Source of the DNA: Bilabrum cf. latius
Taxonomy: Eukaryota
Direction: 5' to 3'
Length of the DNA stretch: 64,000 bases
Assembly: GCA_965178125.1 (NCBI GenBank)
Contig: OZ237752.1
Location: forward strand, 310,001-374,000
Of the stretch, positions 1 to 64,000 are shown in pieces. Position numbers and translations under genes: made by a program. Every line of letters begins with the position of its first letter. Position 1 is the first letter of the stretch. The notes beneath the pieces were generated by a model, which worked only from the letters and a program-made list of their open reading frames with translations, was not told the origin of the DNA and made no database searches.

Positions 1-3000
1 GTGGTGTGCGTGTCTCCTGCGTTGTCTGGCATGGGCTCTAACGAGTCGTCAGTGTCGGTGGCAGTGTCAGTGAGCCGGAATGGCATCGACTTCGGGTCAA
101 GCTCTGGGGCGTTCCTTTACGAGCGCGGCGCCGTGGTGTCATCTGTGTCGCCTTCGACGGGCGTGGTGGGAGGCGGCACGGCAGTGGTGGTATCAGGATC
201 AGGCTTTGAGAATCGGACTGGTCTGTCATGCCGGTTCGGCTCTAGCGGGTCCGTGCCTGCTGTGTACGTGAACTCGAGCGCAGTGCGCTGTGTGAGTCCA
301 CCGGCATCGTCAGCGGTGCCATCTGGCGGCGCAGATGGCGGTATGGTGTCTGTGGAGGTGTCTGTGAACGGGGCTGACTTTTCTCGGGATGGCCAGCGGT
401 TCCAGTACTTGCCTTCGTCGTACGTGAGCTCCGTGTCTCCATCGCTCGGACCTGTATCTGGGGGCACGTCTCTTCGTGTGCGTGGCCTAGGGTTTGCCAG
501 CACTGGCGATCTGGGCTGCGTATTTGTGGCAGCTGGATCTGTGTCTGATTCGGCTGGGGCGGTATCTTTGGGTGCAGTGTCGGCTGGTCGATGGTTGAGC
601 AGCGGTCAGCTGGTATGTGACAGTCCTGCAGCAGGCTCTGTGCCTGGTGTGTCCAACGAGGGCGGGCTTGTGGACGTGTATGTGACCACGAATGGCGTGG
701 ATGTATCGGATTCGTCTGCCTTGTTCGAGCTGCATGGGTCCGTGACCGTTTCGGGCGTGTCACCATTGAGCGGGGGCATGGCAGGCGGCACGGCTGTTCG
801 CGTGAGTGGCTCTGGCTTTGCATTCGGCAGTGGATTGTCATGCCGCTTCGGGGAGGACAGCACGAGCGCACAGTATGTGTCGTCCACGGAGGTGGTGTGC
901 GTGTCTCCTGCGTTGTCTGGCATGGGCTCTAACGAGTCGTCAATGTCGGTGGCAGTGTCAGTGAGCCGGAATGGCATCGACTTCGGGTCAAGCTCTGGGG
1001 CGTTCCTTTACGAGCGCGGCGCCGTGGTGTCATCTGTGTCGCCTTCGACGGGCGTGGTGGGAGGCGGCACGGCAGTGGTGGTATCAGGATCAGGCTTTGA
1101 GAATCGGACTGGTCTGTCATGCCGGTTCGGCTCTAGCGGGTCCGTGCCTGCTGTGTACGTGAACTCGAGCGCAGTGCGCTGTGTGAGTCCACCGGCATCG
1201 TCAGCGGTGCCATCTGGCGGCGCAGATGGCGGTATGGTGTCTGTGGAGGTGTCTGTGAACGGGGCTGACTTTTCTCGGGATGGCCAGCGGTTCCAGTACT
1301 TGCCTTCGTCGTACGTGAGCTCCGTGTCTCCATCGCTCGGACCTGTATCTGGGGGCACGTCTCTTCGTGTGCGTGGCCTAGGGTTTGCCAGCACTGGCGA
1401 TCTGGGCTGCGTATTTGTGGCAGCTGGATCTGTGTCTGATTCGGCTGGGGCGGTATCTTTGGGTGCAGTGTCGGCTGGTCGATGGTTGAGCAGCGGTCAG
1501 CTGGTATGTGACAGTCCTGCAGCAGGCTCTGTGCCTGGTGTGTCCAACGAGGGCGGGCTTGTGGACGTGTATGTGACCACGAATGGCGTGGATGTATCGG
1601 ATTCGTCTGCCTTGTTCGAGCTGCATGGGTCCGTGACCGTTTCGGGCGTGTCACCATTGAGCGGGGGCATGGCAGGCGGCACGGCTGTTCGCGTGAGTGG
1701 CTCTGGCTTTGCATTCGGCAGTGGATTGTCATGCCGCTTCGGGGAGGACAGCACGAGCGCACAGTACGTGTCATCCACGGAGGTGGTTTGCGTGTCTCCT
1801 GCGTTGTCTGGCATGGGCTCTAACGAGTCGTCAGTGTCGGTGGCAGTGTCAGTGAGCCGGAATGGCATCGACTTCGGGTCAAGCTCTGGGGCGTTCCTTT
1901 ACGAGCGCGGCGCCGTGGTGTCATCTGTGTCGCCTTCGACGGGCGTGGTGGGAGGCGGCACGGCAGTGGTGGTATCAGGATCAGGCTTTGAGAATCGGAC
2001 TGGTCTGTCATGCCGGTTCGGCTCTAGCGGGTCCGTGCCTGCTGTGTACGTGAACTCGAGCGCAGTGCGCTGTGTGAGTCCACCGGCATCGTCAGCGGTG
2101 CCATCTGGCGGCGCAGATGGCGGTATGGTGTCTGTGGAGGTGTCTGTGAACGGGGCTGACTTTTCTCGGGATGGCCAGCGGTTCCAGTACTTGCCTTCGT
2201 CGTACGTGAGCTCCGTGTCTCCATCGCTCGGACCTGTATCTGGGGGCACGTCTCTTCGTGTGCGTGGCCTAGGGTTTGCCAGCACTGGCGATCTGGGCTG
2301 CGTATTTGTGGCAGCTGGATCTGTGTCTGATTCGGCTGGGGCGGTGTCTTTGGGTGCAGTGTCGGCTGGTCGATGGTTGAGCAGCGGTCAGCTGGTATGT
2401 GACAGTCCTGCAGCAGGCTCTGTGCCTGGTGTGTCCAACGAGGGCGGGCTTGTGGACGTGTATGTGACCACGAATGGCGTGGATGTATCGGATTCGTCTG
2501 CCTTGTTCGAGCTGCATGGGTCCGTGACCGTTTCGGGCGTGTCACCATTGAGCGGGGGCATGGCAGGCGGCACGGCTGTTCGCGTGAGTGGCTCTGGCTT
2601 TGCATTCGGCAGTGGATTGTCATGCCGCTTCGGGGAGGACAGCACGAGCGCACAGTACGTGTCGTCCACGGAGGTGGTGTGCGTGTCTCCTGCGTTGTCT
2701 GGCATGGGCTCTAACGAGTCGTCAATGTCGGTGGCAGTGTCAGTGAGCCGGAATGGCATCGACTTCGGGTCAAGCTCTGGGGCGTTCCTTTACGAGCGCG
2801 GCGCCGTGGTGTCATCTGTGTCGCCTTCGACGGGCGTGGTGGGAGGCGGCACGGCAGTGGTGGTATCAGGATCAGGCTTTGAGAATCGGACTGGTCTGTC
2901 ATGCCGGTTCGGCTCTAGCGGGTCCGTGCCTGCTGTGTACGTGAACTCGAGCGCAGTGCGCTGTGTGAGTCCACCGGCATCGTCAGCGGTGCCATCTGGC

Positions 3001-3857
3001 GGCGCAGATGGCGGTATGGTGTCTGTGGAGGTGTCTGTGAACGGGGCTGACTTTTCTCGGGATGGCCAGCGGTTCCAGTACTTGCCTTCGTCGTACGTGA
3101 GCTCCGTGTCTCCATCGCTCGGACCTGTATCTGGGGGCACGTCTCTTCGTGTGCGTGGCCTAGGGTTTGCCAGCACTGGCGATCTGGGCTGCGTATTTGT
3201 GGCAGCTGGATCTGTGTCTGATTCGGCTGGGGCGGTGTCTTTGGGTGCAGTGTCGGCTGGTCGATGGTTGAGCAGCGGTCAGCTGGTATGTGACAGTCCT
3301 GCAGCAGGCTCTGTGCCTGGTGTGTCCAACGAGGGCGGGCTTGTGGACGTGTATGTGACCACGAATGGCGTGGATGTATCGGATTCGTATGCCTTGTTCG
3401 AGCTGCATGGGTCCGTGACCGTTTCGGGCGTGTCACCATTGAGCGGGGGCATGGCAGGCGGCACGGCTGTTCGCGTGAGTGGCTCTGGCTTTGCATTCGG
3501 CAGTGGATTGTCATGCCGCTTCGGGGAGGACAGCACGAGCGCACAGTACGTGTCATCCACGGAGGTGGTGTGCGTGTCTCCTGCGTTGTCTGGCATGGGC
3601 TCTAACGAGTCGTCAGTGTCGGTGGCAGTGTCAGTGAGCCGGAATGGCATCGACTTCGGGTCAAGCTCTGGGGCGTTCCTTTACGAGCGCGGCGCCGTGG
3701 TGTCATCTGTGTCGCCTTCGACGGGCGTGGTGGGAGGCGGCACGGCAGTGGTGGTATCAGGATCAGGCTTTGAGAATCGGACTGGTCTGTCATGCCGGTT
3801 CGGCTCTAGCGGGTCCGTGCCTGCTGTGTACGTGAACTCGAGCGCAGTGCGCTGTGT
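1..3857 (+). repeat. Coding tandem repeat, 891-bp unit (297 aa, three IPT/TIG domains), ~4.3 near-identical copies visible; continues upstream of the window
   Basis: Units start at 1, 892, 1783, 2674 and 3565 and differ by only a few SNPs. Shadow ORFs recur every 891 bp. Confidence 0.97.
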
Positions 3858-6800
3858 TAGCCCCCCGCTTGTATCGTCTTGGCTCGTATCGAGTTTTTCT
3901 GCGATGCAGGAAGTTGAGGTCGAACTGGTTTCGTTGGATGGCTGGGTCGCGTATTCAATCGATAGCGTTTTCTCGTATGCAAAGGTCCCTATCGTTTCTC
4001 GTGTGTCACCAAGTGGACTTGTCGTGTCATCAGTGCAGACCTTGGACTTCTTCGGCGAGTCCTTTGGCCCGGTATTTGATGCCGTAGCTGACGGCGTTGC
4101 CACCTGTTTGATCGAATGCGGCGGAGTTGAACTGGAATACACGGCGGCAATCAGTAGCTTGTCGAGTGGCTTTTGCGTTGTGAGCGCACCTGAGCAGGAG
4201 TGCCAAGCCAGCTTTGCTTTGCGCATTGGTCCAGGGTCTCTGCAATCGTAGTGGGTCGAACTCCCTGTGTATGAGCAGCCACGAGTTCAGTCACTGCACC
4301 CCAGTTTCGGTTGGGTCGTTGGCGGATCGGAAGTTACAATTGTTGGCGAAGGGTTGGATGCCTCGCCATCCCTGATTGACGATTTCCGATGCAAATTCGG
4401 TTCTTCCTCTGTGGCCGGGATGGTCATCAATGACACTGCTGCAGTTTGCGTCTCGCCGCCTGGAGAGTTCGTTGGGGATGACGTCGGGGTTGATGTCTCC
4501 TTGAATGGTGGAATTGACTTCACTTCGCAGGGAGACTAGGCGCCTAGGTTCTCCTTTGAGCAACCGCCCACGGTGGCAAGCATTCCCCTTCTTTCTGGCA
4601 CGGGATCCGGCGGCGTGTCAGTGCCAGTCTATGGGACTGGGTTGTCGGCGTCTGGCATGAGCTGCGCATTCGGTGGATTCGGCTCCTCACTGTTTGTGGC
4701 GATCAACGATACGATGGGGCACTGCTTGTCGCCAGCACTTCCATCACCCATCGGAGAGGTGCGGTCGGTGCCTCTGCAGGTGCGGTGGGGCAGTCTGCCT
4801 GCACTGTGTGGCAAGTCTGCCAGGCAAGGGTGCAGCTTCTCATTCACGTACCTTCCATCCGCGCGAATCGGTGCCGTTTCTCCTGCAGTGGTGCAGGAGG
4901 CCGTTCCGACGCAGGTTCGGCTGTCTGGTCAAGGATTCGCTATGTTTGGTCGCATTGAGTGCAAGTTTGAGAGCAGCAGCCATGAGGCCACCGGAAGGTT
5001 CCACTTCGTTTCATCCTCGGAATCGTCGTGTGCTGTGCCCCGAACTCTGCCTCCGGGAGAATACGCAGTGTCTCTGGCGTCCAGCACAGCAAAGCTGATT
5101 GAGCAAGGCACTATTCCAAGGATAATTACGGTGCTGCCTGCTTTGCAGTCGTCAAGTGCTTCGCCAGGGATTGTCCCAGCGGAAGGCGGTCATGCCTTGA
5201 ACGTCACAGTTAGTGGTGTTGCCACTGATTTCGAGGGCGCTTTGGCCTGTGTATTTGGAGGCGGCGGCGTGACAGATGGGTATGTGGTTGCCCCTGGGAC
5301 CGTGGAATGCACGACTCCGCCCTTCAGCTCATCGGAGGAAGTATTCTACCAGGGTTCAGTGCGGGTTGCGTACGAATCAGCGTCGCATTTCGCTGCCATG
5401 GTGGCCGCATCCAGGGATGCAGACACCAGCGACGCAGCAACGTTCTGGCTGGACGCCCGGCGGTCATCCGCGCAGCAAATGATATCCGCCTCCGCGTCTG
5501 TAGCACCTGGTGGCTCTTTGGTCTCCATTAAGCTGGCTTCGGCCGCAGTTCCGCCTGCGGAACTGTTGAGTGGGACGTCGGGTACACCTACGTGTTTTGT
5601 GAGACTGCACGACCTTCCCTGCGGGCCGTTTGCATTCAATGGGGACTTTTCAGTTGATGTCTCTGGTGGCGGGAGTATCACGTGCGAAGTTGATGGGACG
5701 GAGGCGATTCGAAAGCGGTGTGTTTCCCTCCAGTCGAGCACATTCGCAGGGGCGTGGGATGCCTCCATCAGCGTCTCATTCGGCGGGATGCAGTCGTGGC
5801 TCGGACCTGAAAATGACGTGCAGCTGCTGGATGTGGTCAGCTTGCGCGAGGTTGACCCACCCATCACGGTTTACGGGGCGTAGATCGAGTTGTTCCTTAC
5901 AGGTGAGGGCTTTGCCCCTGTGGACGAGGTCTACTGCGTTTTCATTGCGGTAGGTGGCGCTGAGGATGTTTACCCGCGGTCTCGATTCCTACCCATGTCG
6001 AGCTAGATGGGGCGGTGTGCCCAGCCCAAAAATCTGGTACCCGGTGACTATCTTGTCCAGCTGTCAACTGAAAGCGGAGGCGCCGTATCGATGGGGCAAT
6101 CGCCGAGGATAAAAGCTCTACCTCACTCCGGCATCTCGACCGTATCACCTCAATCGGTAAGCAGCCGGTCAAGCTCAACGCTCGTACTGCGGGGCTCTGG
6201 TTTCAACCACATCGATGGGCTCCGTTGCACGTTTGGCATGCATTCCTCTGTGGCCACGGTGGTTAATTAGAGCGTAGTGACGTGCGAATCGCCAGTACTT
6301 CCGACGTCTGCGATGTCTGACCGGGCCGGGGAGGCCTGCCAAGCTGATGGTTAGTGCAGTGCGCAGGTCCGGGTTGGCCTCGCGATTCGCGGCTTCAATG
6401 TGGCCGATCCGGCTGATGGCCCGGTGCTCTTGTTCTAGAACCAAGAGGGCTTGGCCACCATTTCGCCCGCAGTCGTGCCTTTCGACTACGCAGCCTCAGG
6501 CGGTATCGTGAACGTATCGGTAGGAAGCAGCACCGTGGACGTCGGTGATGATGCTGTGCAGTGCAACTTTTTCGATGGCTCAGTGTAGTCGATGGGAACC
6601 GTGATCGTCTCGGAATCTACCAGCATAGTGCAGTGCACGATGCCCTCTGAAACTGATATCGGGACGGTGGTCGCTCAATCGGAAGCCAGCGGAATTGCAA
6701 GCGGGTTCAGGCTGCGAGCAGACGGCAGCCTCTCTATCCGACTCGAGCTGAAGAGCGGGTTTGGGATGGGTACCGTTGGAGCAACTGCAACCATTGCTGA

Positions 6801-9800
6801 GGGCACCATTGTCCAACTGCAGGAGTTTGCGGTCACGTCGGTGGAGCCTCCTGTAGTCACTAGCATCCGAACTTCTTCACAAGGTGAAGCGCGGGTCCTG
6901 CGGCTCAACGGCCGCGGTTTTCCCACGTCAGTACCGGGCACGTGCGTATTTAGGTCAGGCGGTGAGTCAGTCAGGTCAACGTACCAGGCAGTCAGTCAGG
7001 ACACGGTCTTATGCGACCTTCCCGCTCTAGCCCCGGGGAGGGTGAGCGTTTCTGTGCAGTTCTGGGACCAGTACGGCGACCATGATGGCCTTTCAGCGCA
7101 GTCGGACAACGGTTCGGCGGCAATGCTCCTGGTGGTAGAGCAGCCAAGCGTAGCATCCATAGTGCCGCATATCGCCCAGCTCGGTAGCACATCTCAGATC
7201 CTACTGGCGGGCGCCAATTTCAACGCCAACCTTGGGATGGAATGCCTGTACAAGGCAGCCTCCTCCGGGAATACCAGCTCGCCAGAGGTGCGTAGGCCGG
7301 TGTCTGTTTTGACCGCGAATCACGCTGAGTGCGCGCTGCCGGCCTACCTTCCTGGCGCCGGTGCCGCGAGCAGCACCGAATCTAGTGGAGTGTTTCCCGT
7401 GACTATCGAGCTCGTATCGACCACGGAGACGGACCTGGGTCGGACGGAGCCGCTGCATAGAGGCGATCTCGTTGCTCTGCAGCCGTTCAACCCGTCTGCG
7501 GCGCTGACAATCAGCCCGCAGAGGGGCCCGGTGCGAACCAGCGCGCCAGTACGAGTCACCGTTTCACTGCCGGGCGGCTTGCAGCATGCCCGCGTGAAAG
7601 CGCCATTCTGCGTGTTCGACCTGGTCCGAAGCCCTGCAGTAGAGACGTCACCAGGCACGTTCGAATGCAACGCAGCGAGGCGAGCAGCAGCGGGTGCCTC
7701 AAGGGTGGCTCTGTACCCGGATGGGGAGAGCCGCCTTGTGGTCGCCACTCCGTTCGAGTACCTCGATCCTATATCAATCGCTGGGGTGTCGCCCCCCGCC
7801 ATTCCAGAGGCTGGAGGGGTCACCGTAGAGATTCGAGGCAGCGGGTTTGTAATGTCACGGCAGCTGCGGTGCCGATTTTTTGGCGAGATCTCTGTTGATG
7901 CCATGTGGATTAGTCGCCAGGCAATTGCTTGCGTAGCCCCTGTGGGTCCACCGGGCAGGGCCTCTGTGCAGGTGTCCAACAACGGCGGCGACTCTTGGGA
8001 AGGCAGTGGATCTGTCGAGTACCTCCCAGCACTGACTATTACGTCAGCCTCACCTGCTGTTCTCCCTGCAAGCATCGGTGGAACCGTGAATGTGACCGGT
8101 ACCGGCTTCATGGGTGGTCGCGGGCTGCTTTGCCGTGTTGGTTCCTACGAGATCGGTGCAATTCCTGTGGATTCGCACACAGTTCAATGTCCGATCCTTG
8201 GGTCCTTCCGGGCGGGGTCTGCCACGGCCCCGCTGGAGCTGCGGTATGCAGACGTGAGGGCAGCTGAGTGGGTGTCGGCTGACGACGTCACCATCAGCTT
8301 CGCCGAGGTGCCTGCTGGTCTTTTGGTGGAGCCCAATGCGATCGATTCAGGAGCGTAGACCGAACTCATCTTCAGTCTGCCGCCCGATCACCGCGGCTCG
8401 TACCCCGTGTCAATCAACAGTGACTCATTCCTTTGCATGGGTGCAGCTTCCCGCGGTTGCGATGCATCCACGCTGTCGTGGAGGCTGATGGTGCGGCCCC
8501 AAGACAGCCCGGAGGACGAGAGCACGGGCCCTTGCCATGCAACCACGTCGACGCTTTCCTGCACTATTTCTGTTCCTACCGTGTACATGGGCAGTGGCGC
8601 CGTAGATCTGCTGCTGTCGCCCAACAATGGCAGCACATTCCGGGCCACGAGAGCCGACCTGCAGGTGGTGCACCCTTCGGGCGTTCTCGCGACGTCCCCT
8701 GGCGTGCTATCCGAGCCAACCTCAGGGCATCAGCCAAGCATTAAGGTGTATACCACCGCAACAGTAGCGGCATCTGCTCGAATGCGGTGCGTGTTCGGGT
8801 CTGGCGGGGAGGCCACGACGCCAGCTCATGCGATCGACGCGCGCACAGTGCAGTGCGCAGTGCCGCAGCTAGCCCCCGGCACACACCCTGTCCACGTCGG
8901 CGCAGTCTCTAATAGGTTGGCTGCGCGGCGTCTCGCAACCCGACCTACTTCGGCGCACGTCACTATCTTGCCCGTTGCCACCGTTGTTGGGGTCTCGCCA
9001 AAGCTTGTATCGAGTGTGTCCACGACGTCAGTGCGGGTTTCTGGTTCTGGCTTTGTGAATTCGGCGGCTGCGCAGTGCAGGGTATTCGGTGTCGTCTCAC
9101 CCGCTACGGTCTTGTCTGCAAATGTCATGGAATGCAAGGTGCCCCCAGTCATGCAGGGGATCGATACTACCGGTGGTCTTAGCCCCGTCGAGGTCAGCAT
9201 GGACGGCGTGCAGTTCGTGTCAGACCCTTTGGTTACCGTGTCTGCGCGGCAGGAGCCACTCCGCATTCAACTTAGCTCGACGAGCGGCCCAAGGCACGGA
9301 GGGGGCACGGTCGAAATCAGTGCCCTCGATGGACTGGGCGCAGATGCGTCGGTCGTGGATCTGGGCCTCGTGGCCGGCACCTCGCTCGACCAAATCAGCT
9401 GCGAATTTAACGGTACCGTTGTGGCAGGGGCAGTGGCCCCGAGCAGCGGCAAGGCGATGTGCACCGTGCCTCCAAGCTCCAAGACGGGCCTGGTCACAGT
9501 GAGGCTCTCGATCGATGGAGGTACGTTCCTGAGGGCTACGGGGACGTACACGTACGTTGCTTCAATGGCGGTGCTTGAGGTGCGGCCCAGCGTACTCCCA
9601 GAGACCGGTGCCAGATAGCTGCGAGTGCTTGGAGAGGGCTTCATCAATTCGCCCGAGCTTCTTTGCAGGGTGGTTGGCTCTTCACCGACCCGTGCCACCT
9701 GGATCAACAGCAGCAGCATCGTTTGTTCCGCCCCCGCCCGTCACCCAGGCTTATCTGCCCTAGAGATTTCCAACAATGACGGCCACTCGTGGGAAGGCTC

Positions 9801-12800
9801 ATTGCAGCTGGAGTACCTTCCAGCCTTGACAGTGCAGAGCGTGACACCGTCAATTCTGGTAAGCAGCAAGGGAGGCGATGTTACCGTGTCGGGGACCGGC
9901 TTCTAGTCACACCGACGGATGGCCTGTCGCATCGGCCGCGTAGTTGTAGCCGCTTCTGTGATCAACAGCACCAGCTTAGTGTGCGCGGCTCCGAATGCAG
10001 TCGAGGCGGGCGTGTCCCGTGCTGTTGTGGGCGTGGGATTCTCTGGGTTTGACACCGTACCGTTCGTGGAATCTGACCTCGTTTCGGTCGCGTTTACCTC
10101 GGTCCCAACGGTTGTACGCATAGCCCCGAACAGCGGTGCGTTCGAGGGCGGGACTCGAATTAGCCTTGTGCCTGCAGAGGGCCAGGCGTTCCAGAGCGAA
10201 GCACGTGGAATGCCACTGGACTGGGAGTGCGTGTTCATGGTCGAAGCTTTCCCCGGCACGGCGGCGAACGTGCCCTTGGCGCAAAGGGCTGGGCAAACTT
10301 TCAGGGTTGCCGCACAGCTCGACCCGAAGACGAACCAGCTGCATTGCGTGGCCCCGACCATCTCGCGAGGTCCTCGGAATGCAGGCACCCTGCGGGCCGA
10401 CGTGCGGCTTGCGCCGGCAGGAACGGGCCTGCGCAGCTTGGCCCCAACTGGGCTGACGTTCACGTACACGGTAGGACTGCTTGCCACTGCTGTTGGTCCT
10501 GCGACTGGCCCTGAGACCGGCGGTTTCACGATCACTGTGTCTGGCCGTGGCTTTGAGCCGCGTAAGGAGAGCGTGTGCGGCTTCAGGCCTGCAGCTGCGC
10601 ATCCGGGGCAGGGACTGGTGCTTGCCGACGCCATGGCCCACACCGTGCCCCTCGAGTTCCGGTCCTCCACCGAGGTACGCTGTGTGGCGCCCGGCGGGAG
10701 ACCGGGTGAGACGATGATGGTGCACGTGTCAAACGATGGTGTCAGATACAGCCCAGTGGGACTGCAGCTGCAGTACCACTAGCTACCCGCGCTCATGTCC
10801 ATTTCACCCACGTCTGGGCCGATGATCGGCGGATCACTCGTGACTATCCGTGGCAAGGGCTTCGACTTCTCGCCGGATCTCCGGTGCGCCTTTGGTGGGC
10901 TCAAGCTGGTTCCCGCGCTGCTGGTGTCGGACACGGAGATTCGATGCATCACACCGCCGCGCCCCTCTGCGGCCGAGCGCTCCGCGTTCCTGGTGCAGAC
11001 CGGTACACCGCTGGATCAGGCCCTGCGCATCGGTGCCATGTCCGGCCCAGTCGATACGTCTGTTGACGTGGTGAGCAGTAACGGCACTCTTGCTTTTAGT
11101 AGCGGGAGTCAGACGGTGGGTCAGCTGACCTTCAGGTACGTGGATTCGCCCACGGCCTCTGCCGTACTCCCATCGCACGGGCCGCCAAGCGGCGGCACAG
11201 TAGTAACTGTTACTGGCACGGGATTTGTGAAGGGTAGCTCCAGGTGCCTGTTTGGACCTGTTCCCGATCCAGTCCAGGGGGAAGGTGGTATTGCAGTGCC
11301 AGCGAACGTTGTGAACAGCACTGTCGCAACGTGCATCTCGCCCCGCATGCCGGTCGAAGCATCGGTATCTCCGATGCAGTCCGAAGGTGCGGTGGCCGTG
11401 CGAGTGTCAACCAACAATGGGGCCGACTATGGCCACAGTAGTGCTAGATTCCACTACCTGCACGCACCTAGGCTGCAGAGAATGCTGCCGACCACCGGAT
11501 CCGAGCTGGGGGGCACCACGATCCGCTTACAGACCGTGGGATCATCCACCCTGTTCCACCCGTCGTGTGTGTTCCTGGCCAGGAACTCTTCGCTGGGACT
11601 TAGAGGAGGAAGGTTGGACTCTATTTCGGAGATCAAGGACCAGCAGGCAGCCGGCGTGCTCGCCGTTGTACCAGCCCTGCAGACGTCCCCAACGCAAGTG
11701 GAGTGCATGTCCCCCCCTAGCCCAGCCCGGGAGCCCCTCATCACGCTGAGGCTGACTACGAACGGGCAGGACCTATCGGGGACGTTCCTGTCCTTCAGGT
11801 ACACGCTGCCCATGGTGGTACACGAGCTCAGACCGGCCAGCGGGCCATCCACAGGCGGCACCACCGTGCAGGTGATTGGTTCTCGATTTGAGCAGGGCCA
11901 CGGACTCTCATGCCTGTTTGGGCGGCAGCAAGTTGCGGCTTCCTTCATCAGCACATCCATTCTGGCGTGCAGAGCTCCCGCGGCTGCCGTCGGTGGGGTG
12001 CCCGTTTCGGTCAGCCACAATGGGTTCGACTTTGTTCCCTCCGCTGATATTGCACCTCGGTATACGTACGTGGAGCCGTTCGCAGTTAGGAGCATCCGCC
12101 CGAGCTTCGGTCCGGTGGAGGGCGGCACCAGGGTGACGGTACGAGGCGGCGGGTTCGCGTCCGCCTCAATGGACAGCAGCGTTACCTGTCGGTTCGGAGA
12201 CTCGATTGTGGACGGCAGTGTTCTCTCCGACTCTGAGCTGGAGTGTAAAGCACCCGCGTCACCCAACCTGAACCGCCTTGGCGGCGGCGGCCTTGGCTCC
12301 ATGGCCGTAGCAGTCTCTTTCAACGGCAGGGACTTTACTGAGACGATGCTGCAGTACCGATACGTCCCCAGTGTGGTCGTGCTCACGGTGTTCCCCAGAA
12401 TCATGGTTGAAGGTGTTAGGTCTAGAATTAGGATTCGGGGGGACGGGTTTATAGAAAGCAGCCTGCTGGAGTGCCGCTTCGAGCACACGGCAGCTGCAGG
12501 GTCTAGCGTGCCTGCGGTTGGAAACAGCACAGCTCCCGCGCGATTCATCAGCCCGCAGGAAGTTTCGTGCGATGCGCCTGGCGTGCCGCAAGGGATACTG
12601 CGCGTGCGTGTGTCCAATAACGGCAGGGATAACGCTGCTGTGACGGACTCTGCAGCCGCTTTGTCGGTTGTTCCTCAGCTGACCCTTGCTGCAAGCCCTA
12701 CTGCCGGATCCGTCTTTGGAGGAACGCACGTGCAGCTCCGAGTGTCTGGCTTTCCCGCCGCTCTCGAGACACGCGCCTATTGCGTGTTCGATCGAATCAG

Positions 12801-15800
12801 GGTCGCTGCGCTTGCCCTGCAGCAAGAGCCCCTCCATGCGGCTCAAGCGGTTGGGGGGTCCCCGGCGCCACCACCCGCGTACACCCTTGAGTGCATCGCT
12901 CCAGCCGCCAGTCAGCCCGGTGTTGTAGACGTGAGAGCATTTGTCGGGGGGGCCGACCCGGAGTTGGCCCCATACGAGGACGATGCTGCCGTGCCACTGG
13001 GTTCCGTACAGTTCGAGTACACCAGCGAGCCTGTGCTTCACAACGCTTCGTCAGGGGTGGTATTTGCCTCAACCGGAGGAAACACACTGGTTGTGCACGG
13101 ACAGGACTTGCTGCCCACCTCCGTGGCGCACAGAGGGTAGAACATGGCATCGCGGCTCGATGGTGGTCTTGCATAGATGGGACTGGAGCCCTCCTGCCGC
13201 TTCCACGGAGCCTTGTGGAGCAGCGACCCGATGGACGCACCAACCGTAGCGGCCACTTTCATAAATCAGTCTGCTATCCAGTGCACGGTTCCGGGGGGGC
13301 TGGAACCCGGCAGAGTCACGCTGCAGTACTCAATGACGGGGCAGGACAGCGGGTACACTCAGGCAGGGCTTGCTCTGCAAGTGATTTAGGCACCTGAGCC
13401 GCAGACTGTAGTGCCAAACGTTCTCACAGAGGAGACTTTCGTGGCATTGTAGGTGTTTGGCAGCAGATTTGTGCCCGCCGCTGGGCTGTCTTGCATCTTT
13501 GTCCGACAAGACTAGAGCACGTTGTCCCCTGCGCTGTTCGATGGCATGATGCATTCGCATGTGACAGTCGTGTCTGAGTTCAAAGCAACGTGCATCACCC
13601 CGAAGCTGAGGCCTGGGCGATACTACGTGGGTGTCTCGCTATCCGACTCTGTTGCAGCTGCTGCATCAGCGGTGCGCTGGCCAATCGCAATGGTGCGTGA
13701 ACGTCCCAGCGTTGGCACTGCTGTGCCGCAGGAGCTGCCATCCACTGGCGGCATGCGGGTGCGTCTCATCGGCTCGAATTTCATGCATGGGGTGCGGCAC
13801 GTGTGCCGATTTGCTCCGGTGGATCATGATGGCAAGGGGGCTATTCAAGTGTTCCCCAGCTACTCGAACGCCACCGTGGTCTCATCGAACGAAGTCTCGT
13901 GCCAGGCGCCTGCTCGGCCGGCGGGATCTTCCTCTCGCGTGACAGTCGGTGACCACCACAGCGGCTTTGGTGACGATGCCTCTGGGGCACTAGTCACGTT
14001 CGCCAACCCAGCGGTGATCGAGCGCATCGAGCCTGCGTTCGGGCCTGCGTCCGGTGGTACCATGGTTCGATTGTACGGACATGGGTTCAGGGCGGAGGAC
14101 ACAAATCTCTGTCACTTTGGGCAAACGGCATTGACCGAGGCATCAGCACCCGCAGGACTTGGTGCCTTGCTGGTGGCGGCTGCAGATGCTGCGTCGGGAG
14201 TGCGCAAGGCTGTCAGTGCAGGGGCTGGAGAGCTCGTCACACTGCCCACGCCTGCGCGGGTACTCAACTCGACCGTGATTGAGTGCCAGTCGCCTCAAGC
14301 AGTCACTACCAACCTTGTTCGCACTGGAGACCGCGGTGCCACGAGAGCACGCGTGTCCATTCGCACGGTGGCAGGTAGGATGACTGAGTTCGGTCCATCG
14401 TTCACCTTCTACACCCCCGCAATTGTGACATCAATCGAGCCAAGTTCAGGCCCGGATGTAGGTGGTACGTACATCACGGTGCGCGGCGGGAATTTCTTGC
14501 CAACGCGGCAATTAACCTGCAAATTCGGGGCGATTGCAGTGCCAGCGGTGTACGTTACCGAGAGCGAGGTCGGCTGCTGGTCGCCTCCGGCGTGGCAGGC
14601 TGCCGAGGCCGAGCGAGCCGTAGCATCGCCCAGCGTTGTCGCGGTGGTGGTATCAAACAACGGTGTGGACTTTGCGCCTGCCTTCTCTGGACTAGACGCT
14701 GGCTCTGCAGTGGTAAAGGCAATTGCTGCGGCGTCGCAGTCTACAGCCAACCTGTCTGATTCGGACGCTGGCGTGGTTGCATCCATCCGAAGGGCGGCGG
14801 GGTCAGCCGAGACTTAGGCTGAGATCCTCTTCGCTTACGCCAAGCAAGTGGATGTGCTCTCCGCGCAACCTGCTATTGTGTCTGGCTCGGGTGGAACCAC
14901 CGTCACCATCCGCGGCGGCCCTTTCTCGGGGGCGTCATCGGGGAGAGCTCGGTGCAGCTTCGGAGGAAAGCAGGTGGCAGCTTCCGTAATTAACTCAACG
15001 CATCTGCGATGCGAGACGCCTGCCCTTGGAGTAGGGTACACCGATGTGCGTGTGAGCCTGAACGGGGGCGCAGACTACTCCCACGCTTCGGTGGCTGTGA
15101 CTGCCATCCGCCCAGCACAGGTCGACACGATCAGGCCCATTCGAGGTCCAGCAGCTGGCGGCACCCCAGTCGCCGTGTCAGCCATCGTGTCTATTGAAAG
15201 CTCAATGCTGTCTGAGCTTATCGGCACCGCTGCTTGCCGGTTCGGGCAACACGATGTCGCCCCAATCAATGCAACAGCAGTGCCGGCAGGCTTGCACGGC
15301 TCCCAGCCCACGCATCAAGTCTCGCTCACATGCCTGTCGCCGCGGTACATTGACGCCAGCCCGGCGTTCCCCGGAGACGTCGACTCGACCCGCGACCGAC
15401 TCTCCGGCCCAGTCACTGTGCAGCTTCGGCTCGGTCCGGAGTTCAGCCCATTCGGGGGAGTGTTCCGGTACGACCCGCAGATGAACGTGACGAAGGTGCA
15501 CCCGTCGGCATTAGTGGCGTTCCAGAGAGATCCGGCCACCACAAGCATGGCTGGGGCCCTGCTGTCTGGATCTCCGAGGTCTGAGGTCACTCTGACTGGC
15601 TTCGGGTTCAGGGCCGCTGCCTCGGTGTCATGCCGCTTCCGCACGCTGCCCTCGACGTTCCTGCTTGGGAGCGAGCCCGAAGCGGGGGTGCGGCTGCGCG
15701 GGCTGCCGCCGCAGCAAGCGATGGAGAACAAGTACCAAGACTTTTTCACGAATGCCGAAGTGCGCTCCGAAGAAGAAGTCAGGTGCGAGGTGCCTCTTGG

Positions 15801-18800
15801 GGCAAGGTCTGGAGGGTATGCAGTGGCGGTGTCAATGAACGGCGGCGCCGACTACACTTACGATTCTCTCGATGCGGAGGTTGACGGAACCGCAGGGTTC
15901 TCGTCTACTGGGGCTGGGATTGGCAGCGGCGACTTCGCGCCGGGACCTCACGTGGTGTTCCTCGGCCTGCCTGTGGCGGAGGACGTGTCTCCTCGCCACG
16001 GGCCCCTGCACGGAGGTACCGTGGTGCGCATCCGCGGGCGCGACCTGGTTCCACGGCGAGACACGGGCGGCGAGTTGCTATGCAGCTTCGGTTCAAAGCA
16101 GGTTACACCTCTCAAGCACAGTTTCGCCCCAGAGGTCCTCCCAGTCGGCGCGGCTGACGACGAGGCGATGGACGAGGTGGTCTGTGTTGTGCCCGCTGTG
16201 TCTCTTGCCGCCGTGGTTGCGGCTGGGGGTGTGCCAGGCGTGGACGGAGCTGCGGTGCCTGTCGGCCTTTCCGTAGACGGTGGCCAGACCGTAGTGGATA
16301 CAGGCTTTACGTTTGAGTACGCAGCAGATCCCGGGCTTGTGGACGTGCTGCCGGCGCGTGCCGGCATATCCGATGACGTGGTTGTTACGGTCAGGCTGAG
16401 TCAGAAGCTGATGGCTTCGCCTGCATCCGCGCTGTCCGACAACCCCTTCTCGAATTTAGTTGCAAGGGGCGGTCTCGGTCGGGCCCTGCACCCTCGAAGG
16501 AACGCAAGCCTTGCCGCGCTCGTGGGTTACAGCAACTAGGAGGCCGAGCTCATCTTTGCGTTTGCCAACGGGACTGCGATCGGGACGGAGCTTGCAGAGA
16601 TGGCAGCTGCGTCTTCGGCGCCGGAGCAGACTTCAGTGCGATGCCGCATCGGTGGCTCCGCGGGGGTGGTGGTGCCTGCAATCTATCCGGGCACTCCTCG
16701 CCGCGCAGCTCCCGCGCTGGCCTCGCTCCGGTACAACACGCTGCTGGGTCCATCGGACGGAGGAGCCTTTACCGCGGCTGTGGAGGATCGCACGTCGGTG
16801 CCCCTTGCAGGATCACCCCTCGCCGGGCTGTCCAACGAGGCGGGGTGGTCAGACCCGGAGCTACACGTGGACTGCATGGTGCCATCGCAGCTGGTGGACG
16901 CCATTGTACCAAGGACGCAGAGACCCTCGCAGGCAGTGGCCACAGATCCGCAAACGGTGGCAATCGAGGCCGCCCGGCGGCTGGATGGAGCACAGATTGA
17001 GATTTCGACCAACGGCGGGGATTTCTCGACCAGCTAGGTGCGAGTGAGGCGGCCTGCCGTTCCTGTCGTCAATCGCATCTCTCCTGCCTTCCTGGAGCCT
17101 AGCGGCGGTTAGAGCGTGCTGATCGAGGGGTCGGGATTTGAGCCTGTGCTGACTCTCGTTTGCCGTTTCGATTTCTCCGGGGCTCCGGACGGGGGTGCCT
17201 CTAGCAGGCAAGGGTTCGGTATGCCATTCAGGGGCGCGGCTGGGGTGAACACTAGCGTCCTCGTCGCCGCCAGCTGGCTGTCTGCCACCCAGCTGCGCTG
17301 TCACGCACCCCCTGCAGCTGATGGGCCCATGTCCGTCGCTATTGTGGAGGTCTCGAACGACGGCGGGGCGACATTCTCCCAGTCCGGCCGCTCCGTCACC
17401 TACAGAGAAGTCCCGGAGGTGCACGCCGTGAGGCCGCAAGCCGGACCATACCACGGTGGTGTAGTCGTGACTGTGTTTGGCCGCGGGTTTGCCGCTGCTC
17501 AAGGCTTCGAGAGCATCGTGCCGAACCAGAACGCGCGGCGGCCCATGCTGTCGTGCCGCTTCGGGTCGGTGGAAGTGCCTGCGCTTCGGATCGTCTCCGA
17601 CAGTTCGCTGCAGTGCATTGCACCTTCCTAGCCCGCCGGTGCCGTTCGAGTGCCCGTAGATGTTTCCGTGGATGGACAGACCTTCTCGAGTTCTGGGATC
17701 TAGTTCAGGTACCGGGAGCCATCCTTCGTCACGAGCCTCCTGCCGGCCAAGGGGCCTGCCACCGGAGGCACAGCGATGCTGGTACTCGGAGAGGGCTTCG
17801 AAGATGCATCGCCAGCCTATGACGAGAGCGGCCTCCCAATGACCGGCGGCATCGTGCTGGGCATGCCCGAGCCGCTCAGCGGAGGCACGCTGCAGAACGT
17901 CGTGACGGAGGCTAGCCTGGTGACTGACCCGCTGAGGGCGGGCCCCGGTATGGCCTGGGGCACGCGAGACTTGACCGACAACGACGTGTTTGCTTCTTCG
18001 CTGCGGTCCAGGGGCAACCTTCTGTGTCGGTTCGGAGACGTGGATGGCGCCACTGTGCCTGCGCGCTACGTCTCGGAACACGCTGTGGAGTGCGTGACAC
18101 CATCCGTCCAGCTTCACCCGAGGTCGGACGGCCTGCAGGACGAGACCACCCGGGAGGTGGTCGTGCAAGTCAGCATGGATGGCGGTCTGAGTTGGGCTGA
18201 CTCTGGAAGCGTCTTCACGTTTGAGCCGGAGGTTGTGCTCGAGTCGCTTGAGCCCGCCTCTGGCCCGGCCGGCATGGGCGGCACGTTGGTTACACTGCGA
18301 GGGCGAGGCTTCACCAACACGGCTGTGCTCGGGTGCCGTTTCGGCCAGCAAGACGTGCAGGGGAGGTTCATTGACGAGCGAACTATCGTGTGCATTGCAC
18401 CCCCGCTAGGTCTCGGGGCGGTGCAAGTCCGTGTTACGCTGAACGGCGTGGACTACTCTCCGGCACTGCCTCAGGCCGTGGAACGGCGAAGCTTCGGCGG
18501 CGCGGTGGGCAGGAGGGCTGTGGATGAGCTAGCGTCCCTCGGCATCGGTACCTTCGAGGCGTGGCCGCGAGACGGCGAGTCCATCGCATGGGACGCGGAT
18601 GCGACCGAGATCGATTTGGTGGCAGCGCACAGGCTAGCCCTGGCCTACCCGGAGACGATAGACGGAAGACAGCCTCCGTCTGAGTGGGTGGATCTGCTGG
18701 CGAGCGGGCCCAGCACTGCGCCCGTGGCGCCCCTCTTCCATTACTTGCCACTCCCCACAGTCGCCACTGTGTCACCATCTCAGTCGCTCTGGTCGGGGTC

Positions 18801-21800
18801 GTTGCCGATCTACGTGCGAGGAGCCGGGTTCGCCAACACGACCGGCCTGGCCTGCGCGTTCGGGCCCGCTTCCGTCAAGGCTGTCTTCGTCAGCCCCACA
18901 TTGCTCATCTGCCCCGCACCGCAGCGCAGCAGCGCGCAGCGTTTCCCGGCCCAAACAGTGTCCGTGCGCGTGACGCTCAATGGACGCGACTTCAGCCAGA
19001 CGTCTGCTGCCTTCCAGTACCTCGGCTTCGTTCCTCCCGGCTACTACGCCATGGGGTACCAGCTGCTGCGAGCACCAAACGGCACCTACGTGCAAAGATA
19101 CGGGGCTCACAACTTCACCCTGGCTGAGCCGGGGTACTTTCAGCCTAGGGCAGGCATGACCGCACAACTGCCTTGCCCGGTTGGGTACTACTGCCCTGAC
19201 TTTGGGCTCTCTGCCCCCGTTCTGTGCGAGCCGGGCTACGTGTGCGACCGGCTCGGACTCGTGCAGCCCCGCACGCCCTGCCCGCGTGGACACTTCTGCC
19301 CTGCTGGCACCAAGTCGGACGACCCGCAGGATTTCCTCGCGGTGGAGTACCGGCCCCTGTCGGTCGATCTGGAGGAAATGGCCGCCCGAGGCTCGCTGCT
19401 TGACAATGAGACGGTGCTGGACCGGGAGGGCCGCAGGACGTTCCTCGAGGAACTGGACGACTGGAGGATGTCCGTGCTCGGGTACAACCGGGAGACTGCA
19501 GAGGACCCCGCCTGGGACGAGTGGTCGCTCAACCGCGAGTTCGGGCTCGCTTCGTTCAACGCGGGGCCCAGGGGATGGGAACCGCTGCCGAGGCCCTACC
19601 CAGAAGAGGGCAGGGAGCTGCTAGAGGACCCCCACCCGGGCTTTGATCGAACGCCGAGGAGGGACGACAGACACCTTCACGCGGAGAGGCCTCATCCTTG
19701 TCCTCTGGGCGACTACTGCCGCACCGGAGTGGCATCGAACGTCTCAATCCCCAAGAACTTTAGCACCCCGCAAAGATGCTTCGACGGGTTTTTCTGCTCC
19801 CGCGGGTCAGAGACCCCAGAGGGCGTGGGCCCGTGTCCCACCGGTTTCTACTGCCCGACCGAGACCGAGGCGTTCATCTGCCCGCCCGGGCACTACTGCC
19901 CGGGCACGGCCAACGTCAGGCCGCTGAGGTGCTATCCGGGCACCTTCAACCCGAACAGGGAGCAGAGCAGCTGCTCGCTGTGTCCCCCCGGGCACATCTG
20001 CCCAGATTTCAACATGACGGTGCCGGTCATCTGCCCGGCCGGGTTCATCTGCGCCGAGTTTGGGCTGCCGGAGCCGGTGGTGCAGTGTCCACCGGGCTAC
20101 TACTGCCCCGCGGGCGTCCTCACCTTCGATCTCGCCGCCAGCGTCGCGGAGGACCCGTTCGCAGCCCCCTTCGATGGCGACTACGATGAGACGATCGATG
20201 CCGCCATCCTCTCGATCGACGACGGCATCACTAGGACCGTGTCGAGAAGGCTGGCGGCGCTGAGGTTAGAGGAGCTGGACGAAGAGCGAGCCGTGGCAGG
20301 GGCTGAGATGCAGGCAAAGGACAACGCGGAGCAGCTGGGCTCGGGCCAAGCAGCCGCGCTGGAGATGCTGCAGCAGGCAGGGGAGGCCGTGAGGCAGGCG
20401 TGGGAGGGCAGACGAACGGCACGTCAGGTCGCGATGCTGGAGCTGGCTCACGATGCCGGCCTTGCTGCCGGCCTGCCGGTCAGCGCGCTTCGAGAGAAGG
20501 CGAGCACTGGGTTTGGCGGGGCGCTGCGTGCCGAGCACCTGGAAGCAACGTCCGCCGAAGCGCGCCGCCGGCTGCTCCGAGCGGTCGGCTCGGAAGAAGA
20601 CAAGGCCGCCACCCCAGCGAGCGCGTCACATGCTGCCAGGAGGCTCATAGCGAGTGCTGCCAGGGCGGCCGGCTCGGCGGCAACAGCTGCCGACAGCCCG
20701 CTGCCTTCTCGTCTGGATGTGCCACTCGAGGCCATTGCAGGGTTCGAAGACGCTCGCAGGCGTCTGGGCATCCAGGACAACGGTCAGTTCGACAACGCGC
20801 CTCTCCCAACCGCCGACGACATCACTCAGACGAGGCAGGCCGTCGTCAATTACCTCGAGGAGATCATCGGGCCGGACTTCCCCTCCCGCGCGCAGTTCGA
20901 GGCGAGCCCTATCAAGCCGGTGGCTTGCCTGCCGGGCACATTCTGCTTTGGTGGCGTCGCTAGCAACGTCACCTTGGATTGGCTGCCTCAGAGCCCCAGC
21001 GGTGCGTCTGCTCCGTAGACCTGCACGGAGGGTAGCTACTGCAGGTTTGGCGCGGGTTCGCCGGCAGGATCCGGCGCCTGCTTCCCTGGCCACTTCTGCC
21101 CCCCCGGGTCTGTGTTCCCCACACAGGCACCGTTGGGTACCTTCGCGTCTGGCTCGGGCAATGTGGCGCCGACACTGTGCTTCCCGGGCACGTACGCGGC
21201 GCTTCTGTCAACGTCGGAGTGCAGGCCGTGCCCCGCCGGGTTTACTTGTGCCGGGTACGGGACGTACATCCCGACCATCTGTCCAGCCGGAACCTACCGC
21301 ACGCTTGCCGACAGCATCAGCTGCAGGTTGTGCCCCGAGGGAACGTTCTCTGCGCGAACCGGACTCACCTCCATTCTTGACTGCGAGCCGTGTCCCGCGG
21401 GCCGCGTGTGTGGGCAGGAGCGGATGACCAACCTCACGCAGTCCTCGCCTTGCCCCGACGGACACGTGTGCGGAGACGGCACGACGAAAGCGAAGCAGTT
21501 TGACCACCCGTGTCCCGCAGGCGTCTACTGCGATGAGCAGACACGGCCTGCCAACCAGCTGGACTCGGCGTGCGAGCCCGGCAGCTACTGCCTCCGGGGC
21601 ACCAAGGCCTACCTGCGCAACAGGAACAAATGCTCTGTGGGCTACTACTGCCCGCTGGGCACGACGGATTCGTTCCCAACAGAGACCATGTGTCCTTTCG
21701 GCACTACAAGCAAGTCGGGGGTCACCCGTATCACGGATTGCGAGCTGCAGCCGGTGCGGGTCTGCGACAAGGACCCCAACCGTATTTACTACCCTCGCTT

Positions 21801-60026: not shown

Positions 60027-60065
60027 GGATAACTTAAGGTTGTGTTACGATGCTCAACCGCGACA

Positions 60066-63518: not shown

Positions 63519-63671
63519 GCGCAGGCTGCACCAGCAGCCGGGTCCCCTTGTGGCGCCACGGGTGGTCAACCGCCCGAGGAGCCGGGGCCCAGCACGCCCT
63601 CGCATTTTCTAGCAACCCTAACCGGAGGTTCTAGAACTGATTCGATGTAACGTACAAATCAATGTCAGTTT
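63519..63671 (+). repeat. Split direct repeat B2 (right terminus)
   Basis: Matches 62639-62791 by eye (offset 880). Confidence 0.95.
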
Positions 63672-64000
63672 CATGCCCAGCGAGTACAGGTCCGCCCGCT
63701 CGTCGTACACCTCCCCCCTCACGACCTCGGGGGCGATGTAGTTGTCCTTCCCCGCCCAGCCCCGGATGCCATCCGCACCCATAGGCAGCGAACCGCCATC
63801 GGGCGCACTCGTCACACCCCTGGGAGGTTGCAACCACCTGTCCACGGCCTGCCCCGGGTCGATGATGACCCCCTCGCCGTCGTCTGCCAGCACCGAGTTC
63901 TCGAGAGACACGTCACGGTGCAGCACGCCCCTCGTGTGGTGGTGGTGCAGCCCCTTCGCCAGGCCATAGAAAGCCTTGCGAGCGGCTGCCGGGTCCATCC
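63672..64000 (-). pseudogene. Middle part of kinase paralog B; continues beyond the window
   Basis: AARKAFYGLAKGLHH...HRDVSLEN...IIDPG...GKDNYIAPE...DLYSLGM is nearly identical to paralog A at ~42934-43255. Confidence 0.9.

What the first reader, a model, noticed from the sequence alone, without database searches (positions are those of the whole stretch)
1..64000. Nuclear genetic code variant: UAG is a sense codon in every gene of the window
Seen: about 60 in-frame TAGs sit inside otherwise intact coding frames on both strands. Counts are 27 in the giant gene, 5 in Ku80, 5/3/2 in three kinases, 7 in the F-box-like gene, 3 in the ankyrin gene, 3 in a hypothetical gene, 1 in the oxidoreductase and 5 in the RT remnant. 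I found no in-frame TAA/TGA and no frameshifts in these genes. TAGs fall inside folded domains (Ku80 vWA DVG*SM, kinase *HPNI, between kinase subdomains VIII and IX), and no gene model ends on TAG. Known: stop-to-sense reassignment occurs in ciliates, hexamitid diplomonads, some ulvophytes and a few other protists. Inference: this GC-rich, intron-containing, stramenopile-like organism may be an unrecognised case, and standard-code annotation would fragment its proteome.
Basis: partly seen in the sequence, partly recalled or inferred. Interest (0 to 1): 0.97.

Follow-up and report, generated by a model that had tools for sequence, protein, structure and literature searches.

The report
UAG read as glutamine, nuclear genes
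In this GC-rich eukaryotic genome piece the stop codon TAG sits inside every expressed gene and is almost certainly read as glutamine, a rare change of the nuclear genetic code that would make standard gene prediction cut the proteins into pieces.

Summary
Seven gene models, whose introns I took from spliced contigs of public runs, have 13,596 codons. They carry 51 in-frame TAG and no in-frame TAA or TGA, and all seven end on TGA. One frame stays open for 26,442 bases with 27 TAG.

The TAGs are unchanged in contigs of three runs. Those contigs lack the GT..AG introns, so they come from mRNA. This rules out editing, assembly error and decay.

A metagenome relative (L001, 87% protein identity) has its own in-frame TAGs at other positions. 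At 10 aligned sites where one of the two has TAG, the other has CAG or CAA in 8. So TAG means glutamine.

TAA is seen neither in frame nor as a terminator. About 15 in-frame TAA would be expected if it were used like TAG. The code is therefore probably UAG-only, but the meaning of TAA is not shown.

No tRNA gene lies in the window and no genome is held, so the mechanism is inferred. The lineage could not be placed, and 'stramenopile-like' is unsupported.

UAG-to-Gln is known in a few protists. I found no report of a GC-rich case that terminates on TGA.

The parts
1..26442 (+). Giant intronless gene, open at the window's left end. It has many IPT/TIG domains, ephrin-receptor-like cysteine repeats and a multi-pass membrane C-terminus. 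There are 27 in-frame TAG, first bases at 4249, 4537, 5881, 6004, 6268, 6352, 6436, 6586, 8356, 9616, 9904, 10780, 13138, 13174, 13387, 13450, 13513, 14815, 16537, 17035, 17110, 17629, 17701, 21016, 22957, 23194 and 25111. It ends on TGA at 26440-26442.
   Evidence: Run contigs cover 24001-26493 with no differing letter.
26624..29638 (+). Low-complexity gene of 913 codons in three exons. The introns are about 26722-26826 and 27025-27192, both GT..AG. TAG at 26663, 27839 and 28097. Ends on TGA. The start is the first ATG in the open frame and is inferred.
   Evidence: Joints in X5, X6 and X7 but not in X1. Model. An orthologue follows the giant gene in L001.
30088..34169 (+). Membrane protein gene of 1,325 codons with no Pfam family. 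One intron at 30158-30261. TAG at 30675, 31005, 31323, 31326, 31554, 33036 and 33663. Ends on TGA.
   Evidence: X5 contig 30262-34210 has 0 differing letters.
34890..36575 (-). GFO/IDH/MocA oxidoreductase of 561 codons. One TAG at 35430-35432, inside the C-terminal domain. A roughly 170-residue tail ends in AKL and then TGA.
   Evidence: X5 contig 34789-36624 has 0 differing letters. At the TAG site the 97%-identical relative P0003 has Q.
36875..40030 (+). Ku80 gene of 1,008 codons. One intron at about 37037-37165. TAG at 36917, 37250, 37304, 37931 and 39290. The Ku C-terminal domain lies after the last TAG. Ends on TGA.
   Evidence: Pfam Ku (4.6e-26) and Ku_PK_bind (1.1e-10). Exon 1. Joint in X5 and X6. 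Model.
40344..41981 (+). Protein kinase 1 (CAMK/CIPK-like) of 466 codons. One intron at about 40747-40983. TAG at 40485, 40662, 40743, 41358 and 41484, the last two inside the kinase domain. Ends on TGA.
42211..43851 (-). Protein kinase 2 of 510 codons. One intron at about 43371-43478. The first bases of the TAG codons are at 43809, 43479 and 42330. The second TAG is put together by splicing (T|AG) and gives xHPNI. Ends on TGA.
   Evidence: (X7 contig joins 43370 to 43479).

Best explanation
The organism reads UAG as glutamine in cytosolic translation of nuclear genes. UGA is the working terminator.

Shown:
- TAG lies in frame in all seven verified genes, 51 times in 13,596 codons, about one in ten glutamine codons.
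- It is present in the mature spliced mRNA.
- It lies inside conserved domains and before conserved C-termini.
- It exchanges with CAG/CAA between this organism and a relative that has the same property.

Inferred from what is known of other stop-to-Gln codes (Tetrahymena, ulvophytes; PMC11687900 and PMC2984419, passages read):
- A tRNA-Gln with anticodon CUA, one base away from the normal CUG, inserts Gln at UAG.
- The release factor eRF1 has lost recognition of UAG.
- A CUA anticodon would read UAG only, which fits the lack of in-frame TAA. UAA probably remains a rarely used stop.

With 27 UAG in one gene, decoding must be close to complete: 90% per site would leave about 6% full-length product.
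For: (1) Frame +1 of 1-26442 is open with 27 TAG and no TAA or TGA. Chance is about 1e-76.

(2) The seven spliced models have 51 TAG, 0 TAA and 0 TGA in frame, and 7 of 7 end on TGA. The six introns together hold all three stop triplets.

(3) Contigs of X5, X6 and X7 (two studies) skip six GT..AG introns that the DNA-like run X1 keeps. The contigs listed cover 22 of the 25 TAG sites in 24001-44000 with 0 differing letters. None of the 40 listed variant places is a TAG site; 28 further variant places were not shown.

(4) L001 is a 6,928-base metagenome contig of GC 0.596. Its orthologue of the giant gene's C-terminus is open with 7 TAG and ends on TGA. Its next gene has 4 TAG and ends on TGA.

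(5) At 10 aligned sites with TAG in one of the two sequences, the partner codon is CAG or CAA in 8, AAC in 1 and ACT in 1. Gln beats the next-best residue by more than 10 log10 likelihood units. Gln-Gln conservation in the same alignment is 0.82, against 8 of 10 observed.

(6) More distant homologues: at residue 8371, P0122, P0123 and P0124 all have Q. P0125 has Q at 7006 and 7653. P0003 has Q at the oxidoreductase site.

(7) Domains span or follow TAGs: both kinase domains, the GFO_IDH_MocA C-domain and Ku_PK_bind. The AKL end of the oxidoreductase is conserved in P0002 and P0003.

(8) If TAA were used in proportion to CAA:CAG (0.30), 15.4 in-frame TAA would be expected. None is seen, P about 2e-7.
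Against: - No tRNA gene is in the window and no genome is held. Neither the suppressor tRNA nor eRF1 has been seen.
- No peptide evidence exists.
- Some sites do not show Q. P0125 has E at residue 7732. P0122 has K and P0123 has E at 7653, and H and D at 7732. The two most distant homologues, P0126 and P0127, have L in the stretch aligned at 8371. P0002 has T and the 11 bacterial homologues aligned have R (9), A (1) and D (1) at the oxidoreductase site. The four TAG sites of L001 in the poorly conserved neighbouring gene face K, H, R and R. The kinase 1 sites face N or R and F or K in solved kinases.
- TAA was seen neither as sense nor as stop, so 'UAG only' rests on an expectation and not on an observed TAA terminator.
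- X5, X6 and X7 are held as contigs whose library type is a guess. One is flagged 'probably DNA'. Their RNA origin rests on the intron-less joints.
- The evidence covers 64 kb of one genome plus 7 kb of a relative.
Confidence: 0.85

Rival explanations
1. The organism uses the already known UAR-to-Gln code (NCBI table 6), in which TGA is the only stop, as in ulvophycean green algae, many ciliates, hexamitids and an aphelid. TAA is simply very rare because the genome is GC-rich.
For: All 7 window genes and both L001 genes end on TGA, and none ends on TAA. In ulvophytes with this code TGA is the only stop, and TAG is used more often than TAA (PMC2984419, passages read). The introns begin GTGAG and end GCAG, which from memory resembles GC-rich green algae. 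The best-scoring Ku80 hit that a call ties to an organism is a streptophyte alga.
Against: There are 0 in-frame TAA against 15.4 expected from the CAA:CAG ratio, P about 2e-7. The Ku80 tree puts the query outside the supported clade that holds the green-plant sequence. Intron density is low, with none in 26 kb of the giant gene. The aphelid Amoeboaphelidium has GC of about 40% (PMC10608142, Table 1), against 60% here.
Confidence: 0.09
2. UAG has two meanings depending on context, as in Condylostoma, karyorelicts or Blastocrithidia: Gln inside genes and stop near the 3' end of the message.
For: The last TAG of kinase 2 lies 39 codons before the TGA, in a low-complexity tail without homology. 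It could be the real terminator. Nothing in the window rules out TAG terminators elsewhere in the genome.
Against: In the other six genes, conserved sequence or long open frame follows the last TAG. The distances are 165 to 513 codons, and the stretch includes the Ku C-terminal domain and the conserved AKL end. The orthologous genes in L001 also run to TGA.
Confidence: 0.04
3. There is no change of code. The TAGs are artefacts or damage: assembly or sequencing errors, sites of C-to-U or U-to-C RNA editing, or decaying pseudogenes.
For: Nothing positive. This is only the prior that code changes are rare.
Against: The same letters stand in runs of three studies, including spliced contigs. No TAA, TGA or frame break occurs in 13,596 codons. 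A related organism shows the same pattern at other sites.
Confidence: 0.01

Closest known systems
UAG-only stop-to-Gln nuclear codes: the fornicate Iotanema spirale and the ciliates Protocruzia tuzeti, Hartmannula sinica and Trochilia petrani (PMC5304391 abstract and passages; PMC11687900 abstract, introduction and passages)
   Same: UAG is used widely as a sense codon at Gln positions. UAA is not used as sense. A single-base change of the tRNA-Gln anticodon is the expected route.
   Different: In the phyllopharyngean ciliates studied (which include Hartmannula sinica and Trochilia petrani) UAA is the preferred stop and UGA the least used, and their GC runs from 27.4 to 53.6% (PMC11687900, passages read). 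Here GC is about 60%, and every terminator seen is UGA and none is UAA. The window shows ordinary spliceosomal introns and a 64-kb stretch with satellites, unlike ciliate macronuclear DNA (that last comparison is from memory).
UAR-to-Gln code (NCBI table 6) of ulvophycean green algae (Dasycladales, Cladophorales, Trentepohliales, Blastophysa), many ciliates, Hexamita, Streblomastix and Amoeboaphelidium (PMC2984419, PMC8271138 and PMC11687900, passages read)
   Same: Gln is the residue, TGA is the terminator seen, and TAG is commoner than TAA.
   Different: In-frame TAA is absent here (0 against about 15 expected). Amoeboaphelidium genomes have GC of about 40% (PMC10608142, Table 1).
Other UAG-only reassignments: rhizarian exLh and TARA phyllopharyngean ciliates (Leu), Scotinosphaera (Ser), ciliate PL0344 (UAG=Glu, UAA=Lys) (PMC11687900 and PMC8271138, passages read)
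   Same: UAG is uncoupled from UAA.
   Different: The residue differs. Here Gln is favoured by more than 10 log10 likelihood units over every other residue.
TAG-to-Gln recoding in crAss-like and other gut phages (table 15) (PMC9523058 and PMC10879173, abstracts in search listings only)
   Same: Same codon and same residue, through a suppressor tRNA.
   Different: Those are phage genes in bacteria. Here the genes are eukaryotic and nuclear, with spliceosomal introns.

Membership tests
UAG-only stop-to-Gln nuclear code (table-15 type) | In-frame UAG in many intact, expressed, conserved genes | tested here: met
   51 TAG in 7 of 7 verified genes. TAG is kept in spliced run contigs. Pfam domains span TAGs.
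UAG-only stop-to-Gln nuclear code (table-15 type) | UAG falls where relatives have Gln | tested here: met
   8 of 10 sites against L001. Q in 3 of 5 homologues at residue 8371. Q in P0125 at 2 of 3 sites. Q in P0003. Misses are listed in the Against line.
UAG-only stop-to-Gln nuclear code (table-15 type) | UAA kept as a stop and not used as sense | tested here: inconclusive
   0 in-frame TAA against 15.4 expected, so it is not a used sense codon. But 0 of 7 genes (and 0 of 2 in L001) end on TAA, so its stop function was not seen.
UAG-only stop-to-Gln nuclear code (table-15 type) | UGA kept as a stop | tested here: met
   7 of 7 genes end on TGA, with 0 in-frame TGA in 13,596 codons.
UAG-only stop-to-Gln nuclear code (table-15 type) | A tRNA-Gln gene with anticodon CUA | not testable with these tools
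   No tRNA in the window, no Rfam hit, no genome held.
UAG-only stop-to-Gln nuclear code (table-15 type) | eRF1 altered in its stop-codon-recognition domain | not testable with these tools
   eRF1 is not in the window and no genome is held.
UAR-to-Gln code (table 6) | In-frame UAA at Gln positions as well as UAG | tested here: not met
   0 TAA in 13,596 codons with 51 TAG. 0 TAA in the open frames of L001.
Context-dependent stop/sense codes | The same codon also ends genes near the 3' end of the message | tested here: inconclusive
   No gene needs a TAG terminator. The last TAG of kinase 2, 39 codons before the TGA, cannot be judged.
Pyrrolysine decoding of UAG | UAG at a few special sites of methylamine methyltransferases, with pyl genes present | tested here: not met
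   The TAGs are spread over unrelated genes and exchange with CAG/CAA. The pyl genes could not be looked for.

The most novel reading that the evidence does not exclude
An independent UAG-to-Gln reassignment in a so far unplaced, GC-rich eukaryotic lineage. It is shared by at least two organisms that differ by 13% in a conserved protein domain and 39% in a neighbouring gene. UGA, the leakiest stop, carries essentially all termination, and UAA has dropped out of use both as sense and as stop. That would be a state close to one working stop codon. It would also be a test case for codon reassignment under GC pressure, whereas the phyllopharyngean ciliate cases read about have lower GC and prefer UAA as their stop.
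Probability: 0.4. Interest if true: 0.88.

Novelty: new member of a known kind. Interest (0 to 1): 0.78.

Why it matters
Changes of the nuclear genetic code are rare. Cases where UAG and UAA part ways are rarer still, with about half a dozen lineages in the papers I read (PMC11687900). This case has an unusual setting:
- The genome is about 60% GC.
- UGA is the only terminator seen.
- The code is shared with at least one related organism in a metagenome.

It bears on two questions: why UAG and UAA are usually coupled, and whether GC pressure can drive a reassignment.

There is a practical side. Standard-code prediction breaks these genes up. The 8,813-codon frame falls into pieces of at most 1,416 codons. 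Database proteins of the close relatives look truncated. Any proteome, orthology or phylogenomic work on this organism and its kin needs the right table.

Tried and rejected
**Lineage**
- The word-based protein search with Ku80 gave only Chromera velia at 25% identity.
- The full HMMER search with the Ku80 core gave hits of at most 40% identity among full-length proteins. Two short fragments reached 56% and 67%.
- I looked up 30 of the best 150. Seven carry an organism name: Mesotaenium, Lapot, Ancoracysta, Protostelium, Mastigamoeba, Capsaspora and Acytostelium. They are scattered over the supergroups.
- The IQ-TREE run did not finish. The FastTree of 66 rows put the query on a long branch with no supported clade. 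I report no placement.

**Other searches that gave nothing usable**
- The Atlas search with a TAG-free part of the giant gene gave no usable hit.
- The oxidoreductase has only bacterial named relatives, at about 40% identity.
- No run on record as RNA was listed for the stretch.
- The kinase 1 TAG sites fall in variable columns of solved kinases and say nothing about the residue.
- The IPT/TIG repeats of the giant protein were compared by eye only. TAG sometimes falls at the 'GGT' position, but that column varies, so I did not use it.
- The ankyrin region at 44-55 kb was not modelled. No run was laid there.

**Calls that returned no result**
- There is no whole genome for this window.

**Considered and rejected**
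- Amoeboaphelidium as the source, because its GC is about 40% (PMC10608142, Table 1).
- Ciliate macronuclear DNA, because of the GC content, the satellites and the 100-240-base introns.

**Limits**
- Supplementary files of the papers were not consulted. Codon-count tables of the ulvophyte papers may bear on the table-6 rival.
Full report
**What the window is.** It is 64 kb at about 60% GC. It has no tRNA gene and no Rfam match.

**The open frames.** Under the standard code the longest frame has 1,416 codons. With TAG read through, frame +1 is open from base 1 to 26442. That is 8,813 codons with 27 TAG, no TAA, and one TGA at the end. Reading TAA or TGA through does not lengthen the frames in this way. 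The two other frames of the same stretch hold 345 TAA+TGA. A frame this long without them has a chance of about 1e-76.

**The genes.** Pfam names the following.
- The giant frame is a protein with many IPT/TIG domains, ephrin-receptor-like repeats and a membrane C-terminus.
- There is a GFO/IDH/MocA oxidoreductase, Ku80, two protein kinases and ankyrin repeats.
- A fragment of a third kinase, a paralogue of kinase 2, runs off the right end.
- The 1,006-codon frame at 57248-60268 is a 112-bp satellite. 107-bp repeats follow it.
- I found no reverse-transcriptase domain in the six frames of 55001-64000, nor in the 30 frames tested one by one. The 43.4-55 kb region itself was not scanned in six frames.

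**Evidence from public runs.**
- Eight public runs hold part or all of 34800-43500.
- I laid X1, X5, X6 and X7 on 24001-44000.
- X1 is collinear with the window.
- X5, X6 and X7 come from two other studies. Their contigs skip six stretches of 104-237 bases with GT..AG ends, so they derive from spliced mRNA.
- Their library type is only a guess in the record, and X5 is flagged 'probably DNA'.
- The listed contigs of these three runs cover 22 of the 25 TAG sites in that stretch without a differing letter.
- None of the 40 variant places listed is a TAG site. 28 further places were not shown.
- So the UAGs are in the message. Editing and assembly error are excluded for these sites.

**Gene models.** I used the joints to build seven gene models.
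- Together they have 13,596 codons, 51 TAG, 0 TAA and 0 TGA in frame.
- All seven end on TGA.
- The six introns together hold all three stop triplets.
- One TAG, the one before HPNI in kinase 2, is formed by splicing (T|AG).
- TAGs lie inside both kinase domains and inside the oxidoreductase C-domain. The Ku C-terminal domain lies after the last TAG of Ku80.
- The oxidoreductase runs about 180 codons past its TAG to an AKL end. Two close relatives share that end.

**Which residue.**
- A scan of metagenome contigs gave two loci.
- L002 has GC 0.42 and 38% identity. It has no in-frame TAG and ends on TAA.
- L001 has GC 0.596 and 87% identity over 1,232 aligned residues. It holds the C-terminal 1,235 codons of the giant gene with 7 TAG of its own, ending on TGA. 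The orthologue of the next gene follows, with 4 TAG, also ending on TGA. A second organism therefore shares the property.
- At the 10 aligned sites where either sequence has TAG, the other has CAG or CAA in 8, AAC in 1 and ACT in 1.
- From the same alignment, Gln is more than 10 log10 likelihood units better than any other residue. Q faces Q at a rate of 0.82, as observed for TAG.
- Further homologues agree in part. Q stands in P0122, P0123 and P0124 at residue 8371, in P0125 at 7006 and 7653, and in P0003 at the oxidoreductase site.
- Others do not agree. E stands in P0125 at 7732. K and E stand at 7653, and H and D at 7732, in P0122 and P0123. L stands in the stretch aligned at 8371 in the two most distant homologues. 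T stands in P0002, and R (9), A and D in the 11 bacterial sequences aligned.
- The four L001 TAGs in the poorly conserved neighbour face K, H, R and R.
- Kinase sites are in variable columns.

**The meaning of TAA.**
- CAA:CAG is 0.30 in these genes. If TAA were a Gln codon used like TAG, about 15 would be expected. None is seen, P about 2e-7.
- TAA is not a terminator in any of the 7 genes either, nor in the 2 genes of L001.
- I therefore favour a UAG-only change, but the window does not show what TAA does.
- The known UAR-to-Gln code, with TGA as sole stop, stays a minor rival. Ulvophyte green algae have it and use TAG more than TAA (PMC2984419 and PMC8271138, passages read).

**Mechanism.** This is inferred, not shown. 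A tRNA-Gln with anticodon CUA reads UAG only, and eRF1 no longer recognises UAG, as discussed for other lineages (PMC11687900 introduction; PMC2984419 discussion). With 27 UAG in one gene, decoding must be nearly complete.

**Lineage.** I could not place the organism.
- Ku80 relatives reach at most 40% identity among full-length proteins.
- The seven of the 30 looked up that carry an organism name, plus Chromera, are scattered across eukaryotes.
- The tree gives no supported position.
- 'Stramenopile-like' is thus unsupported, though not excluded.
- Amoeboaphelidium is excluded by its GC of about 40% (PMC10608142, Table 1).

**Literature.**
- UAG-only reassignment to Gln is reported for Iotanema spirale, Protocruzia tuzeti, Hartmannula sinica and Trochilia petrani.
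- UAG goes to Leu in a rhizarian and in TARA ciliates, and to Ser in Scotinosphaera (PMC11687900, PMC5304391 and PMC8271138; abstracts and passages read).
- Eight full-text searches found no report of a GC-rich case that terminates on TGA.

**Verdict.** The residue is glutamine. It is a new member of a known kind unless already published. Its unusual features are the GC-rich setting, termination on UGA alone as far as seen, and its presence in at least two related organisms.

Noticed in passing
window 1-4250: The 5' part of the giant gene is made of nearly identical 891-base (297-residue) units, about 4.7 copies. Each unit holds three IPT/TIG-like modules. This part has no TAG at all, which fits a recent expansion.
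   Followed up: partly
window 34006-34672: Word depth in run X1 is about 11,200, against about 100 on either side. There are many variant letters and loose ends. This points to a very high-copy dispersed repeat between two genes. Smaller spikes at 28003-28669 and 41343-42009 coincide with low-complexity coding repeats.
   Followed up: no
window 57503-60026 and 60060-62136: A 112-bp satellite of 22.6 copies at 96% match, followed by arrays of a 107-bp unit. They create long spurious open frames on both strands, including a 1,006-codon one.
   Followed up: yes
window 34890-36575 (-): The oxidoreductase is bacterial-like. Its named relatives are all bacterial, at about 40% identity. It carries a eukaryote-only tail of about 170 residues ending in AKL, which looks like a peroxisomal targeting signal. 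The tail is conserved in P0002 and P0003. This may be a transferred gene fitted with a targeting tail.
   Followed up: partly
window 43370/43479 (-): The TAG codon before HPNI in kinase 2 does not exist in the DNA as a triplet. It is assembled by splicing (T|AG) and is seen in a spliced contig of X7.
   Followed up: yes
window about 63640-63998 (-): A fragment of a third kinase, a close paralogue of kinase 2, runs off the right end. It is followed by sequence that recurs at 62423-62791.
   Followed up: partly
window 44000-55000 (-): Ankyrin-repeat exons recur several times (45960-47042, 52637-53959, 44182-44778), embedded in repeated sequence with strong strand skew. The exon structure was not worked out.
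   Followed up: no
L001 1-6928: The gene order, giant gene followed by the low-complexity gene, is kept in the metagenome relative. All 11 TAGs of L001 sit at positions other than the window's.
   Followed up: yes
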